Assembly (NCBI GenBank): GCA_964016885.1
Contig: OZ024742.1
Span: forward strand, 312,666,001-312,730,000
Direction of reading: 5' to 3'
From: Eledone cirrhosa
Taxonomy: Eukaryota
DNA: 64,000 nucleotides
A model generated the notes under the pieces. That model saw only the letters and a program-made list of their open reading frames with translations. It was not told the origin of the DNA and did not search any database. Shown here piece after piece: positions 9,614 to 47,015 of this stretch (position 1 is its first letter; every line of letters begins with the position of its first letter). The position numbers and the translations under genes are program-made.

Positions 9614-9696
9614 GTTATTCCGGGTTGAATCGGAGGTAACCACAGATTCCTGATGATTTCTAATGAATGAAACAGTTTTAGTCCTGTAGAATCTCA

Positions 9697-22891: not shown

Positions 22892-23031
22892 CAGTAGGGA
22901 GTAATAGAGAAATAAATATGTATATTTTGCATCTAATTTTCATTGAGCTTTTATGGAACAACGAAATGGAGAATATTTCGATTTATTTATACCTGTTACA
23001 CCCCCCCCCCCCCCCCACACACACATATATG

Positions 23032-23175
23032 GAGGCACATGGATTAGTGGTTAGAGCATTGGCCTTGCAATCGAAAGGTTGTGAGTTCAATTCTCAGACC
23101 GGGTGATGTGTTGTTTCCTTGAGCAAGACACTTTATTTCACATTGCTCCAGTTTACTCAGCTGTAGAAATGAGAT
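23032..23175 (+). mobile_element. CORE-like SINE 5' part
   Basis: tagtggttagagc...gagttcaattc...ccttgagcaagacactttatttcacattgctccag, same family as 21420. Confidence 0.7.
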
Positions 23176-23405
23176 GATAGGGACTGGGGTCCCTATCATT
23201 CCACTGCAAAGTGGTTGTGTAGGTGCCACGGCAAAAACCACCCAGCACTCACTGTAAATGAGGTTGGTGTTAGGAAGGGCATCCAGCTGTAGAAATCAAG
23301 CCAGAATCAGTTCCCATCCCACCCTTGCAAGCAGGGAAAAGTGGACATAAAATGATGATGATGATGATGATATATAGTTATGTAATAAACAACATAAAAT
23401 AATTA

Positions 23406-23468
23406 TTTCCTTTACCAGTGGTTTCTTGAAGACAGATGTTGTGTCTGTCTTCAGTCGTCAGAATGAAT
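23406..23468 (-). ncRNA. Type I hammerhead ribozyme
   Basis: Minus strand: ttcatt-CUGACGA-ctgaagacaga..tctgtcttcaa-GAA-acc act ggt-A(cleavage)-aaggaa. One mismatch in stem I. Confidence 0.7.
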
Positions 23469-23979
23469 AAAAAATATGGTGTCATCATCATCATCATCAT
23501 CATCATCATCGTTTAACGTCCATGTTCCACGCTTGCATGGGTGTATTTATTAAATATGGATTTGAAAACAAAATTTAGGAAATATGAAAGTGAGGCTGAA
23601 AAAAACAGGTGAAAAGGAAATAGGGAAAAAAATAAAAAATATATATATAAAAAAATATAAATATCCAGAACGTAAACATACACACACTCAACTACGCGCA
23701 TATACTAAATAGTATATAGACGGATACTTTCTCAAATAAGCGTATTTGCGTCTACATAGAAATACGGACAGGAACATAAATACATACACATACATATACA
23801 CAGATATATACATAAATACATACACATACATATACACACTCAAAAATGTACACACAGATATGGGCAGTAGTTAGGAAGCAGGAATAACTAAATAAATAAA
23901 TAAGAACAAAAAATACAAAAAATATATGTATATATATATATATATATATATTTATGTAATAAACAACATAAGATAATTA

Positions 23980-24039
23980 TTTCATTTACCAGTGGTTTCT
24001 TGAAAGCAAACAAATCTGCTTTCAGTCATCAGAATGAAA
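23980..24039 (-). ncRNA. Type I hammerhead ribozyme (left arm of palindrome)
   Basis: Reverse complement of 24118-24177. Confidence 0.75.
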
Positions 24040-24117
24040 AAATCCTGGTGTTTTTATTGAATGTGGATTTAAAAAACGTTTTTTTTAAATCCACTGTCAA
24101 TAAAAACACCAGGATTT

Positions 24118-24177
24118 TTTCATTCTGATGACTGAAAGCAGATTTGTTTGCTTTCAAGAAACCACTGGTAAATGAAA
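24118..24177 (+). ncRNA. Type I hammerhead ribozyme (right arm of palindrome)
   Basis: Stem I tttcatt/aatgaaa; CUGAUGA 24125-24131; stem II tgaaagca/tgctttca; GAAA 24158-24161; stem III acc/ggt; GUA 24168-24170. Confidence 0.8.
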
Positions 24178-24270
24178 TAATTATCTTATGTTGTTTATTA
24201 CATAACTATTAAGCTCTGTAACCTACATAGAGCACTCTTTCTTCCTGGACCTTTCCAACGGAATTACTTC

Positions 24271-24325
<55 letters not shown>

Positions 24326-24689
24326 AAAATCAAAATCATAATCAAAAACAAAATAAAGTTTAAAAAAGGGGGGGGGGGTACGTGTTGACAGCGATAGGTG
24401 TGAGTGTGTGTGGGGGAGGGGGAGGGGGAAATAAATAAAAACAACTTAAATATAAACAAATACAAAAGATATGCATATACATATATATATATACACATAC
24501 ACATATACACATAAACATGCATATATACCTATACACACATGCAAACACACACACACGTATATATGTGTGTATATATATAAAATAAATATACGTACACATA
24601 CACATACATGTGCATACATATATATATATACATATATAAATATAAATTCTATATATATATATAGAATAAAAGAGAAAACACAGGTAAGC

Positions 24690-28948: not shown

Positions 28949-30930
28949 CTATCCGCAAGGGTATAATGTGGGGCTGTAATACAGGAAAGTTTTATGCAAT
29001 TTATGTTTACAAGCCGAAATTGCCTCAGATTTTTTGTTTAAGATGTTGTCATTGGCGTAGAGTATTTCCAGGGCTTCGACGGCGCAAAGATCACATGGTC
29101 TTTCATTTCCGTTATACGATCTAGCCTTAGCTAGGATCTCCCAGTGTAACCTATATTGGGGGTGGTTGTCTTTTAGACTCCAGATATAAGCTGAAAGTGA
29201 CATCATATTCCTTCTTAAAGGGTTAAGAAAATAATGGGTGTGCATGTAAAGGCGCTGCTTGAATCTATTGGCGGGTAACCCTATGTAGGCCCTACTAGAC
29301 GTGGGTGTTTCGACCTTACATTTGTAGACAATGTTACTGGAGAGGCATTTCCCGGATAGAGGGCAGTCAACCCGATTCCTACAATTACAGTTAGTACTAG
29401 CTACAGGGTTGCACGTGTTACTACGGCTAGGTAATTTAGCTAAATTTGAAGCAATGATGTTATGTGCAAAATTAGGAGTCGTAGAGTAAGATATTTTAAT
29501 GGTATTTCTATTAAAAATATTATTATATTTATGTGCTGAGGGGAAATGCTTCTTAATAAGGGAGAGAAAAATCTTAGCTAATGGTGCGGCCACCTCCATA
29601 TTATATGATAGGTTAAACCATATAATGAGTCGGAATCTATTTTTCCTTGGTCTATACTCATACTTAGTATATGCTACCTTATCGACAAATCCACTCCGAG
29701 CAAGAACTTCATTGTAATATGTGGAATGGTCGGTGAAAATATGCTCGTTTGTAGATAGACGGGAAAGCCTCAAAGAAACGTTTGTTACTAGGTTCTTGGT
29801 TATGCTGGCAGGATGGTTAGAATGCTTGCTTATGTAATTAAGCGTATCATTCGGCTTTCTATACGGGTAGTGCAAGCCATTCGACAAATTGAGGGTAACG
29901 TCGAGGTAATTAACGACCGAGAGGTTGGCCTCAACCTGTATGGAGAGGTTGAAGCCTTTAAAGAAGGCTGTGAGTTATTTTCTGAACTTGTCGCAAGCGC
30001 GTGGACCGCACTTTGTCATGGTCAAAAGACCATCATCACGGTACAAACCACCGCCCACATTGGGGAATTCTTCCTTGATAGAGAAAAGAGGGAAAAGGCC
30101 GATAAAATCTGTAACCTCCGCCGAATCGCTGGCGCCCATACTCACGTCGAATGGGGTACTATTAGATTTTTTTTATCCAAATAGAGTTGTCGAAATTAAT
30201 CACATACTTACGGGCATTGAGGATGACATCAACTTCGAAATCCTTAACCACCGTGAGCATTTTAGCGAAATTGATAGCTCTAAGAAGAAGTGGTAAAGTG
30301 ATTGAGGAGTAGTAGTTATTGATGTCGAATTGGATAAAACGGCAATGTTCCTTGTTGCATATGCCATTGAACCAATCAATCACCGCGAAAGAATTATTCC
30401 ACAGTGCAAGAGGGGCCAAACTTCTAATTTCAGGTATAATTCTATCTAAAATCCTTTTACTAAGTCTACCTAAATCAGACTTCGTAGGGTTAATAAGCCG
30501 AATAGAGGGGCTGTTGACGAAATTGGGTTTATGATCCTTCGGTGTAAAGTGGGGAGCAATTAGGATCCAAAGGTTCAGTCCAGTCCTGAATGTTGAGTTC
30601 AGAAGTGATTTTAAACCTAGCATCGTTGATGTCATTAATGGCACGCCGATTGGTTTTCCGGTAATCCTTAGTTACAGCATTATGTAGCAGTTGAAGGTAA
30701 GTATTGCGTCCACTTGAAATAGATTGCCAGTTTTGTCGGAGTAGACGTGCACGGCATTAGAACCCTTAATAGAACGAATTTTATTCTTCAGGTTCTGCTG
30801 GAAGGAATTGCTTCTATTCCGAAATTTCATACTCCGTATGAGTTCCAATACATCATTTTCGAAGGGTAGCAATGCTGGGTTACTCGGAGGGTTATTATAA
30901 GTTTTAAACCCAAATTTATCCCGTTTATTG
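28949..30930 (-). pseudogene. Frameshifted Penelope-like RT/GIY-YIG polyprotein
   Basis: Track ORFs 30672-30872, 30162-30644 and 28949-29887 are consecutive pieces of one PLE protein. Confidence 0.88.
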
Positions 30931-31113
30931 TCCGCTTTCCCTAGTTATCAAAATAAAAGGCACGCCAACGCAACCTTTTAAGGAACGAATCCGTTTTCTG
31001 TATCAGAAGTTTCAGGTATGCCTTCCTGCTAGGTACGGGTATGTTCTTTGTAGAAATATTCAGGTGTTGTTTCTGCATGATGAATATAAGTCAATAGAGT
31101 GCTCAACCGAGGG

Positions 31114-35880: not shown

Positions 35881-36191
35881 TAGGTATCCACTGTAAGTTG
35901 TGGGGTCTATTCTGTATGAAGAACTCAATGTAATCCATATGTTGGAAATGTTGTAGGTTAAGATAAATCTCAGAAAACAATAAAACATTAAAAGGAAAAC
36001 AGAGTCATGATATAAGTTGGAACAATGAAATAAAAAATCAAATCATTAGATATATACTCCACTGCTTTACGATCGTTTCTATATGGTGATAATACATTGT
36101 ATCTATACTCAGTTATTGATCTATGTAAGTTTACAAACTATCAGATAGAGAGAATATTTACTTACATGCATGTCACCAGCTGTTTATTACG

Positions 36192-37890
36192 ATGGGATCC
36201 ATGGACTCTGCTCAAGTTACAGACCTCGTTGGACTATTTCTGCTCTATAACATTAATGACTCTTTTCCCCACCTCAACGGTGGTCTTTATCGGGATGATT
36301 GTCTATTGTTATCTAACAATCTTAGCAATTAAAATATAGAGAAGAACAAAAAGCAAATTAGAAAATTCCTCAAGGACTATTACAGCCTTAACATCACTTT
36401 TGAAAACACTTCAAAAGTAGCTAATTTCCTTAATGTTACCTTAGATCTCTCTATGAATACTTATCATCCATACCACAAACCTTACCAGATCTACATTATG
36501 TACATTCACGATCTAACCACCCAGGCTCTATACTCAAGAACTTAGTATATAACATTTCTCTTAGACTTTCTAAATTATCTTCCAATGAAGATATATTTTA
36601 TAATAATGCACCCTTCTACAACGAGGCCTTAACTAGAAGTGGATATAAAGAAAAAATCTCATATATCCCCAACACTACTATGGACCAAAACATAAAACCT
36701 AACAAAAACTACAAACACCAAAAAATACCATTGAAACAAATACCTAAAGTGGTTATTCCTATTACACCAAACAACCGAAAAACCACAACAACTATTACTA
36801 CACGATCAATGACCAATGTTATCAACCCACATATGAATACTAAGCACTCAAAATCTCATAATCTACCCCAAAATAACACCAAATACAACCACGATGATTT
36901 ACCAAATTCCACAAATAAGGACACTAACCATAGGAACTCTTCTAGAACACAACACAATAATATAAGGGATAATAAAAACTTAACTAAAAACCGCAAAAGA
37001 AACATAACATGATACAACGCACCCTTCAACCTGCAAACTATTGGACAAATCCCCCCCAAAATTTTTGAAATACTACATAAACATTTTCCACCAAACCACA
37101 GATACCACCAAATATTTAACAAATATACTGTTAAATTCTCATACTCTACATCAAACAATCTCAAACAAAAAATAAGCAACTGCAACATTTATAAACTTAA
37201 AAATAATATGACTACACCACTGCAACATAATTTAAATAGGACTGCACCTTTTAAAAAGACAAATAATACAATCCTTCAACCTAGAAAACACAACCACCCA
37301 AATCACCAACACAAAAACAACAGAACACAAAATTACAATACAACTCTAGCACCAAACCACCCACAAAGCAACCTTCATTCTCCTGCTATCATTAATTACA
37401 ATAGCAATAGATCAAGAATAAATGAGAATAGTATAGGCACCCCCCAAAACCATCTTACGTATGGCTGTAATTGCAGAAATAGAAGCATTTGCCCCTTAAA
37501 TGGAAACTGTTTGATAAATAATGTAGTATATAAATGCACTGTGCTACTACAGACTCCAACAAAACATATATAGGATCTACATCAAACGCATTTAAGAAAA
37601 GATTTTACGCGCACACTAGTAGTTTCAACAATACTAAACTAGCAAACACCACATCTTTAGCTGAAGCGGTAAATAATTATAAAAAGAAAAAAATAGATTT
37701 TAAGTTATCGTGGAACACCATTCTACAAAAAACTCCATATCTTGGAAACAGGAGGGAATGGGGATTCTGTTCAGGAGAGATCTTAGAAATTAATAAATCT
37801 AAGGACGATTTATTAAATAAAAGACAGGAATTGATCATAGTCTGTAATCACCGTATACGAAAAACATTTAAATACTATAAACCTAATTAA
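36192..37890 (+). pseudogene. Frameshifted Penelope-like RT (C-terminal half) + GIY-YIG
   Basis: Manual translation plus track ORFs 36680-37012, 37208-37573 and 37534-37890. Confidence 0.85.
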
Positions 37891-46849: not shown

Positions 46850-46867
46850 CATATTTTTTTTATTTAC

Positions 46868-47015
46868 TTACATAATAAACAACACAATATAATTATTCCA
46901 ATTAAATCTTTGGTAATGGAATAATTATATTGTGTTGTTTATTATGTAATTAATTAGCTCTGTACTATACATAGAACACTCTTCTTTCCTTACCTTTTCT
47001 ACAGAAATACTTAAT
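46868..47015 (+). repeat. Relative of the 24.1-24.3 kb hammerhead element's 3' part, with a 33-bp perfect inverted duplication
   Basis: 46868-46900 is the reverse complement of 46917-46949; 46911-47010 aligns to 24166-24270. Confidence 0.75.

What the first reader, a model, noticed from the sequence alone, without database searches (positions are those of the whole stretch)
23377..24272. Second hammerhead family: palindrome with a ribozyme on each strand, plus a paralog with covarying stem II
Seen: a ~250-bp loopless palindrome places identical canonical hammerheads on the minus strand (23980-24039) and plus strand (24118-24177). About 575 bp upstream, a diverged minus-strand copy (23406-23468) keeps the core (CUGACGA, GAAACCACUGGUA) while stem II changes from tgaaagca/tgctttca to tgaagacaga/tctgtcttca, i.e. 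compensatory change. No ORF is attached and the element is bounded by (TA)n. Inference: a non-autonomous PLE/retrozyme family with partial tandem plus inverted structure under selection for the fold. A transcript across the palindrome would form long dsRNA that masks the ribozyme.
Basis: partly seen in the sequence, partly recalled or inferred. Interest (0 to 1): 0.72.

Follow-up and report, generated by a model that had tools for sequence, protein, structure and literature searches.

The report
Mirror-image ends of Penelope retrotransposon
The palindrome is two back-to-back cut-short ends of an abundant protein-coding Penelope-type jumping gene, sitting inside an older copy of a sister family; it was likely made in one insertion event, and it is an ordinary example of a known insertion pattern rather than a new ribozyme device.

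Summary
The sequence observation holds; the interpretation mostly does not. The 262-bp palindrome and its two identical hammerhead motifs are real. They are the head-to-head 3' ends (pLTRs) of a 5'-truncated Penelope-like element with Hydra-clade motifs. In longer genomic copies the same end runs straight into a ~710-codon RT-endonuclease ORF. The upstream 'paralog' is a separate sister-subfamily copy (23374 to about 24650); the palindrome inserted into its internal (TA)n tract. So this is a nested insertion, not a partial tandem, and not a retrozyme. Stem covariation is real between subfamilies, but sampled copies show no extra core conservation (2.6% vs 2.3% flank). The ribozyme has C·A at 10.1/11.1, a layout already seen in published Hydra hammerheads. 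Such palindromes are common (29 of 89 sampled loci) and published for PLEs. A useful by-product: 24 of 25 classifiable pairs join one short end with one tailed end, and arms nearly always share lineage markers (4 of 145 discordant, 65 expected). That fits one RNA copied from two start sites. Reads did not bridge the centre (inconclusive). This scan already reported the same class at other loci.

The parts
23948..24076 (-). Left arm: 5'-truncated pLTR of subfamily A, ending at the short 3' terminus (site 1, no tail)
   Evidence: 57 of 100 sampled subfamily A motifs end at this position
24078..24273 (+). Right arm: 5'-truncated pLTR of subfamily A plus tail, ending at the long 3' terminus (site 2)
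   Evidence: 40 scored copies 96-100% identical, 2345 candidates; 35 of 100 end here; this end runs into the ORF in full-length copies
23980..24039 (-). Type I hammerhead motif, left arm (predicted; cleavage untested)
   Evidence: identical to 24118-24177
24118..24177 (+). Type I hammerhead motif, right arm: stem I 6 bp, C10.1.A11.1 mismatch, stem II 10 bp, palindromic 3-bp stem III, GUA site (cleavage untested)
24210..24273 (+). 64-nt tail between the two 3' termini; holds a 7-bp hairpin (24217-24237) that recurs across subfamilies
23922..23951 (.). Left half of the (TA)n target, internal to the subfamily B copy
   Evidence: empty sites in L254 and L101
24274..24323 (.). Right half of the (TA)n target
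23374..23480 (-). 3' end of the subfamily B copy, with hammerhead motif 23406-23468 (stem I mismatch), ending at site 1
   Evidence: 40 scored places, best matches 95-97%; 267 exact stem II matches
23481..23539 (.). Fragment of an abundant SINE-like repeat with (TCA)n, interrupting the B copy
   Evidence: 44 hits among fetched loci; B copies are continuous here
23540..23941 (-). Subfamily B 3' UTR, proximal part
24305..24650 (-). Subfamily B 3' UTR, distal part, beyond the inserted palindrome; far end approximate
   Evidence: L133, L254, L101 collinear across the insertion point
23030..23372 (+). SINE-like repeat whose (GAT)n/TA end abuts the B copy's 3' end
   Evidence: 102 hits among fetched loci, best 95-97%

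Best explanation
The palindrome is a pair of head-to-head, 5'-truncated 3' ends of an endonuclease-encoding Penelope-like retrotransposon with Hydra-clade motifs, lying in a (TA)n tract inside an older sister-subfamily copy, and it was likely made in a single insertion event. Shown: family membership, link to the ORF, nesting, two fixed 3' termini 64 nt apart, and same-lineage arms across the family. Inferred: the element's protein, supplied by a full-length copy, nicked both strands of the (TA)n. One nick primed reverse transcription at the outer start site (tailed arm) and the other at the inner site (short arm), probably on the same RNA. Both cDNAs stopped early and were joined at a self-complementary A/T run. 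The hammerhead is the normal pLTR ribozyme, likely kept by selection in the active source lineages and a decaying passenger here. It would be expected to cut poorly as a monomer and to be masked in a read-through transcript.
For: ORF link: the window's 24081-24273 is followed directly by the ORF in L061 and in 6 of 30 loci. L085 holds ~710 codons in one frame with 2 stops. 24 of 124 protein matches lie in stop-free frames of 708 codons or more. All 12 fetched carry RMRWK, SDKT, YRDDG, CxCx5C, CxxC..E and N..CxH, and 11 of 12 have a pLTR on both sides. The predicted structure (pLDDT 92.9) matches telomerase RTs best. Atlas neighbours carry GIY-YIG and RVT_1 in part of their members. These motifs are the Hydra signature in PMC8557442 section 11, whose supplement lists Hydra-1_Obim, Hydra hammerheads with the same stem II base, and Penelope-13_HM with an inverted copy and a hammerhead on both strands. 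Structure: 29 of 89 motif-sampled loci are head-to-head; 24 of 25 classifiable pairs are site 1 + site 2 (p=2e-7 against independent choice). Arms are discordant at 4 of 145 marker comparisons against 65 expected. Two internal RT start sites and extension of both strands were shown in vitro for another PLE (PMC11167929). Nesting.
Against: The window's own arms are the one pair (1 of 22-23 comparable) that differs at a lineage-marker dinucleotide, and the right-arm haplotype was seen in 0 of 101 copies. A template switch, gene conversion or a polishing error is needed to explain it. No read or contig was shown to span the centre. The stop-free ORFs examined belong to a younger sister subfamily C (83-84% in the pLTR, 90% in the ORF); no stop-free subfamily A ORF was seen among those examined. 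Pfam and PDB sequence searches gave no significant hit, and no tree with reference Hydra sequences was built. The unit is 4.1-4.7 kb and the tail 64 nt, longer than the published <3 kb and 30-40 nt. The two-strand priming step is inferred from a Poseidon-clade element.
Confidence: 0.9

Rival explanations
1. Same element, different mechanism: the mirror arm arose by self-priming or fold-back copying of one cDNA or of an antisense template, with the endonuclease trimming one end to leave a single tail.
For: Proposed in PMC3846280 and in PMC8557442's remark on tail resolution (passages). Same-lineage arms and overlaps at 17 of 29 junctions fit this too.
Against: Non-inverted copies end at either site (38 and 21 of 60), so both are independent ends. 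In L301, L116 and L109 one arm holds only tail sequence that the other lacks (2 of 66 by the script's rule, L109 by inspection). Fold-back cannot give that, although a later deletion at the centre could.
Confidence: 0.3
2. A non-autonomous PLE derivative or retrozyme that spreads as a short unit, with the paralog as a partial tandem.
For: Most copies lack the ORF. 59 of 100 sampled motifs have 5' ends within about 35 nt upstream to 48 nt downstream of the window's truncation point. A preprint derives animal retrozymes from pLTRs (10.64898/2026.07.22.740005, part 1).
Against: No shared 5' end; no short same-strand tandems in 100 listed places; direct ORF linkage; the paralog is a nested target from another subfamily.
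Confidence: 0.05
3. This palindrome is an assembly fold-back artefact.
For: No record spans the centre in the runs laid (the tool warns that blanks can be false).
Against: The arms differ at three positions, two of them a family-wide polymorphism. The left arm stops at the family's site 1 while the right carries the tail, like 24 of 25 other pairs. Arms across the family differ by 2.75% at non-marker sites.
Confidence: 0.03
4. The locus has been co-opted by the host as a regulatory hairpin or ribozyme switch.
For: The arms are 98% complementary and the right-arm core is intact.
Against: Arm similarity is within the family range; core decay equals flank decay across copies; the paralog's stem I is mismatched.
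Confidence: 0.03

Closest known systems
Hydra-clade Penelope-like elements, incl. Hydra-1_Obim and Penelope-13_HM (Craig et al. 2021, PMC8557442; section 11, passages, supplement parts 1-2 and passages seen)
   Same: Single RT + C-terminal endonuclease ORF with RWK, DKT, CxCX5C and CxxC/CxH motifs; (TA)n targets; hammerhead near the 3' end with an extra, often mismatched pair before a Y-R pair and a G-C pair; inverted 5'-truncated copy with a hammerhead on both strands (Penelope-13_HM). By eye, 23 of the first 40 residues match Hydra-1_Obim.
   Different: A different family from Hydra-1_Obim (different hammerhead sequence). Unit 4.1-4.7 kb because of a long microsatellite-rich 3' UTR. Tail 64 nt. 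Clear pLTR-ORF-pLTR arrangement (Hydra-1_Obim is listed as having no pLTR). Many subfamilies, 14,119 motif matches.
Metazoan PLE hammerheads (Cervera and de la Pena 2014, PMC4209133; parts 1-2 of 4 seen)
   Same: Type I, long helix II, short helix I, palindromic helix III, many families per genome with covariation, and pairs 100-700 bp apart on opposite strands.
   Different: Their consensus has one extra nucleotide after A9 and a conserved G10.1-C11.1 pair. Here the conserved G-C lies two steps out on both sides (49 G-C and 10 G.U of 67 motifs).
PAc Poseidon element of Anolis (Frangieh et al. 2024, PMC11167929; parts 1-2 of 4 seen)
   Same: Two internal RT start sites that define the tail; AT-rich targets; both strands cut and extended; hammerhead dispensable for insertion in vitro.
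   Different: Poseidon clade; its ORF starts inside the hammerhead, here about 220 nt downstream of it; the paper parts seen give no genome-wide analysis of inverted pairs.
Non-LTR retrozymes (10.64898/2026.07.22.740005; part 1 of 5 seen)
   Same: Non-coding, hammerhead-bearing, pLTR-related.
   Different: Defined by tandem monomers each with a hammerhead; not found here.

Membership tests
EN+ Penelope-like element | Single ORF with telomerase-like RT and C-terminal GIY-YIG-type endonuclease | tested here: met
   Not in the window copy but in linked full-length copies. The endonuclease call rests on motifs and Atlas neighbours; Pfam gave no hit.
EN+ Penelope-like element | pLTR-ORF-pLTR partial tandem | tested here: met
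   11 of 12 stop-free subfamily C copies; subfamily A examples L130, L134, L136
EN+ Penelope-like element | Adjacent inverted 5'-truncated copy, tail at one end | tested here: met
   29 of 89 loci; 24 of 25 with one tail; tail is 64 nt rather than 30-40
EN+ Penelope-like element | Hammerhead motif in the pLTR | tested here: met
Hydra clade | RWK and DKT motifs | tested here: met
   12 of 12; subfamily A L085
Hydra clade | CxCX5C linker; CxxC and CxH around the conserved E and N | tested here: met
   12 of 12
Hydra clade | (TA)n insertion preference | tested here: met
   flanks printed
Hydra clade | CCHH motif absent from the endonuclease | tested here: inconclusive
   None seen by eye; no alignment to canonical CCHH endonucleases made
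Hydra clade | Phylogenetic placement with reference Hydra RTs | not tested
Hydra clade | Generally short, under 3 kb (descriptive in the paper, not treated here as defining) | tested here: not met
   period 4.1-4.7 kb
Canonical type I hammerhead | CUGANGA, GAAA and NUH core on three helices | tested here: met
   (right arm); the paralog's stem I is mismatched
Canonical type I hammerhead | G10.1-C11.1 pair next to the core | tested here: not met
   C.A here; the first position pairs in only 24 of 67 motifs
Canonical type I hammerhead | Self-cleavage | not testable with these tools
   needs an in vitro assay
Non-LTR retrozyme | Tandem non-coding monomers each with a hammerhead | tested here: not met
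   0 of 100 listed places with a same-strand neighbour within 1 kb (by inspection); ORF-linked

The most novel reading that the evidence does not exclude
One Penelope RNA is read twice in a single insertion. Two copies of the protein hold two start sites 64 nt apart, on either side of a conserved hairpin, and each primes from the opposite strand of a nicked (TA)n. That would explain why mirror insertions almost always carry exactly one tail and share lineage markers, and it gives a genomic rule that tests the unresolved origin of PLE inverted repeats.
Probability: 0.45. Interest if true: 0.5.

Novelty: new member of a known kind. Interest (0 to 1): 0.22.

Why it matters
The locus itself matters little: it is one of hundreds of similar stumps. 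The family is a good test bed. It has over 14,000 hammerhead motifs in many subfamilies, stop-free ORF copies, and a strong one-tail-per-palindrome rule. These allow two open PLE questions to be tested: how inverted insertions form, and whether a hammerhead lacking the 10.1-11.1 pair cleaves or matters for transposition.

Tried and rejected
Rfam at gathering and E-value thresholds: no hammerhead hit, only generic hairpin matches. First clade guess Neptune: dropped for Hydra. Idea that the displaced G-C pair is a new ribozyme variant: dropped, because the published Hydra table shows the same layout; Lunse et al. 2017, which may describe such variants, could not be read. Idea that the two arms come from different templates, prompted by the window's pair: rejected for the family (4 of 145 discordant). 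Idea of a capped transcription start at the palindrome centre: not supported; 5' ends are spread, with only 16 of 100 in the peak bin and no consistent extra G. Raw-data check of the centre: no spanning record and 0 laid, which is no test (short contigs, reduced-representation reads). Expression: no RNA holder listed. Pfam, PDB sequence and profile searches of the ORF: nothing significant. Earlier findings near this place: none. R-scape-type statistics were not run; covariation counts are raw and not corrected for relatedness.

Full report
Observation. The palindrome is as described: arms 23948-24076 and 24081-24209, 98% complementary, centred on C|G at 24077/24078. The two hammerhead motifs are identical. 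In isolation each folds into a type I hammerhead with a 6-bp stem I, a 10-bp stem II and a 3-bp self-complementary stem III. The pair next to the core is C.A, not G-C. The upstream motif (23406-23468) also has a 10-bp stem II, with two double-sided changes and one G.U to G-C, but its stem I carries a mismatch. Rfam recognises none of them. The window lies in a 3.0-Gb genome. An octopus is inferred from similarity to Hydra-1_Obim; no call names the organism.

It is a dispersed repeat end. The stretch 24081-24273 has 2345 candidate matches. The 40 scored are 96-100% identical, and 15 of them, the window included, have an adjacent inverted partial copy. Exact stem II patterns give 871 matches for this subfamily (A) and 267 for the paralog's type (B), with 0 in controls. 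A looser core pattern gives 14,119 against 2.

It belongs to a protein-coding element. Walking upstream through a microsatellite-rich UTR led to endonuclease and RT fragments. In L061 and in 6 of 30 further loci, the window's end is followed directly by the ORF. L085 holds about 710 codons in one frame with two stops. Of 124 protein matches, 24 lie in stop-free frames of at least 708 codons. I fetched 12 of these 24. All have ORFs of 709-714 residues and belong to a younger sister subfamily C. Eleven have a pLTR on both sides, with a period of 4.1-4.7 kb where both hammerheads were found. A and C ORFs are 90% identical; B-linked fragments are 87-89% identical to A. Homologues are mostly about 700-730 residues and 41-58% identical. 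The predicted structure matches telomerase RTs best. Pfam and PDB sequence searches found nothing significant.

Clade. RWK, DKT, CxCX5C, CxxC..E and N..CxH are present in 12 of 12. These are the features given for the Hydra clade (PMC8557442 section 11). That paper's supplement lists an octopus member, Hydra hammerheads with the same extra pair at the base of stem II, and Penelope-13_HM with an inverted copy and a hammerhead on each strand. No tree was built. The unit here is longer than the 'generally under 3 kb' reported.

The paralog is the target, not a tandem unit. B copies elsewhere match the window at 23374-23480, 23540-23941 and 24305 to about 24650. In L254 and L101 these parts are continuous across a plain (TA)n. 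So a B copy inserted first, and the A palindrome landed in its internal (TA)n. A 59-nt SINE-like fragment also interrupts it.

Two 3' ends and the palindrome rule. I took the first 100 listed of 871 subfamily A motif matches. The sample is chosen by an intact stem II and comes from the start of two contigs. Of these, 57 end at site 1 (window 24209), 35 at site 2 (24273), 6 elsewhere and 2 run on towards the ORF side. Forty-one extend 60 nt or more upstream; the other 59 have scattered 5' ends. Of 89 distinct loci, 29 are head-to-head pairs: 24 join site 1 with site 2, 1 joins two site 1 ends, and 4 have an unclassifiable end. The 60 single copies end at site 1 (38), site 2 (21) or elsewhere (1). 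Independent choice predicts 47% mixed; 24 of 25 gives p=2e-7. Adding the loci gives 45 arm pairs, three loci counted twice. Arms disagree at 4 of 145 comparisons of five partly linked polymorphic sites, against 65 expected for unrelated copies. At other sites they differ by 2.75%, against 3.4% for random copies. Each palindrome therefore comes from one source lineage and the arms then decay separately. The window is the exception: 2 of the 4 disagreements are its linked dinucleotide, and its right-arm haplotype occurred in 0 of 101 copies. This is unexplained. A few loci have one tail-only arm, which fits separate priming but could be later deletion.

Covariation and selection. Among 67 distinct motifs from several subfamilies, stem I pairs hold in 57-67 of 67 at six positions with several pair types. 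The third stem II pair is G-C or G.U in 59 of 67, while the first pairs in only 24. These counts are not corrected for relatedness, and the core was fixed by the search pattern. Within subfamily A, eight core positions outside the pattern are changed in 21 of 808 cells, against 68 of 2929 in the flank (p=0.60). The fold is kept between source lineages (selection inferred), with no sign of selection on inserted copies.

Mechanism. Shown: identity, nesting, two termini, pairing rule. Taken from published work on another clade: both target strands are cut and extended, reverse transcription starts at two internal sites that define the tail, and the hammerhead is not needed in vitro (PMC11167929). 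Inferred: the two nicks primed at the two sites, probably on one RNA, and the short cDNAs joined at an A/T run. The main rival is self-priming or fold-back (PMC3846280). I put the identity at 0.9 and two-site priming at about 0.6 against 0.3 for fold-back. PLE hammerheads cleave weakly and as dimers in vitro (PMC4209133). A read-through RNA would be predicted to form a long duplex (-192.5 kcal/mol), but transcription here is unknown.

Artefact check. No contig or read was shown to span the centre; these data could not test it. Arm differences and the family-typical asymmetry argue against fold-back in assembly.

Novelty. Inverted pLTRs with one tail (PMC8557442, PMC3846280) and opposite-strand hammerhead pairs (PMC4209133) are in print. 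Six searches and the passages read showed no count of end pairing or arm marker sharing, but the library is partial. Lunse et al. 2017 was seen only as a title in a reference list. Also seen: PMC6765202 and PMC13282606 as passages, and the retrozyme preprint part 1 of 5, without its supplements. Earlier notes of this scan reached the same class at other loci; they are unchecked leads, read after my own analysis. Verdict: a new family member of a known kind, low interest for the locus, moderate for the mechanistic rule.

Noticed in passing
window 29003-31078 (-): A near full-length, broken RT-endonuclease ORF of a distant Hydra-like family, 40-45% identical to the subfamily C protein.
   Followed up: partly
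window 36186-37851 (+): Fragments of another distant Hydra-like ORF, 28-52% identical.
   Followed up: no
window 46865-47015: A third, shorter head-to-head pair of related ends in TA repeats, again one short arm and one tailed arm; most of the hammerhead is missing.
   Followed up: partly
L327:3300-3405: All 12 stop-free subfamily C copies carry a decayed older pLTR-like segment inside the 3' UTR (77-82% to the window end; GUG at the cleavage triplet in L327). This suggests the long UTR grew by insertion into its own TA tracts.
   Followed up: partly
window 24217-24237 and L137-L206: A 7-bp hairpin just 3' of site 1 recurs in 17 distinct sequences across subfamilies; the search motif itself selects for it, so the count is biased.
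   Followed up: partly
L327:500 and other subfamily C copies: The youngest subfamily has G.U in place of the otherwise conserved G-C stem II pair and CUGAGGA in the core.
   Followed up: no
L133:3200-3280; L129:1330-1800: The (TA)n tract in the B 3' UTR that took the palindrome here holds unrelated insertions in two other B copies, so it may be a recurrent target.
   Followed up: no
window 9643-9684 (+): A hammerhead-core-like string with no stable stem II; probably chance.
   Followed up: no
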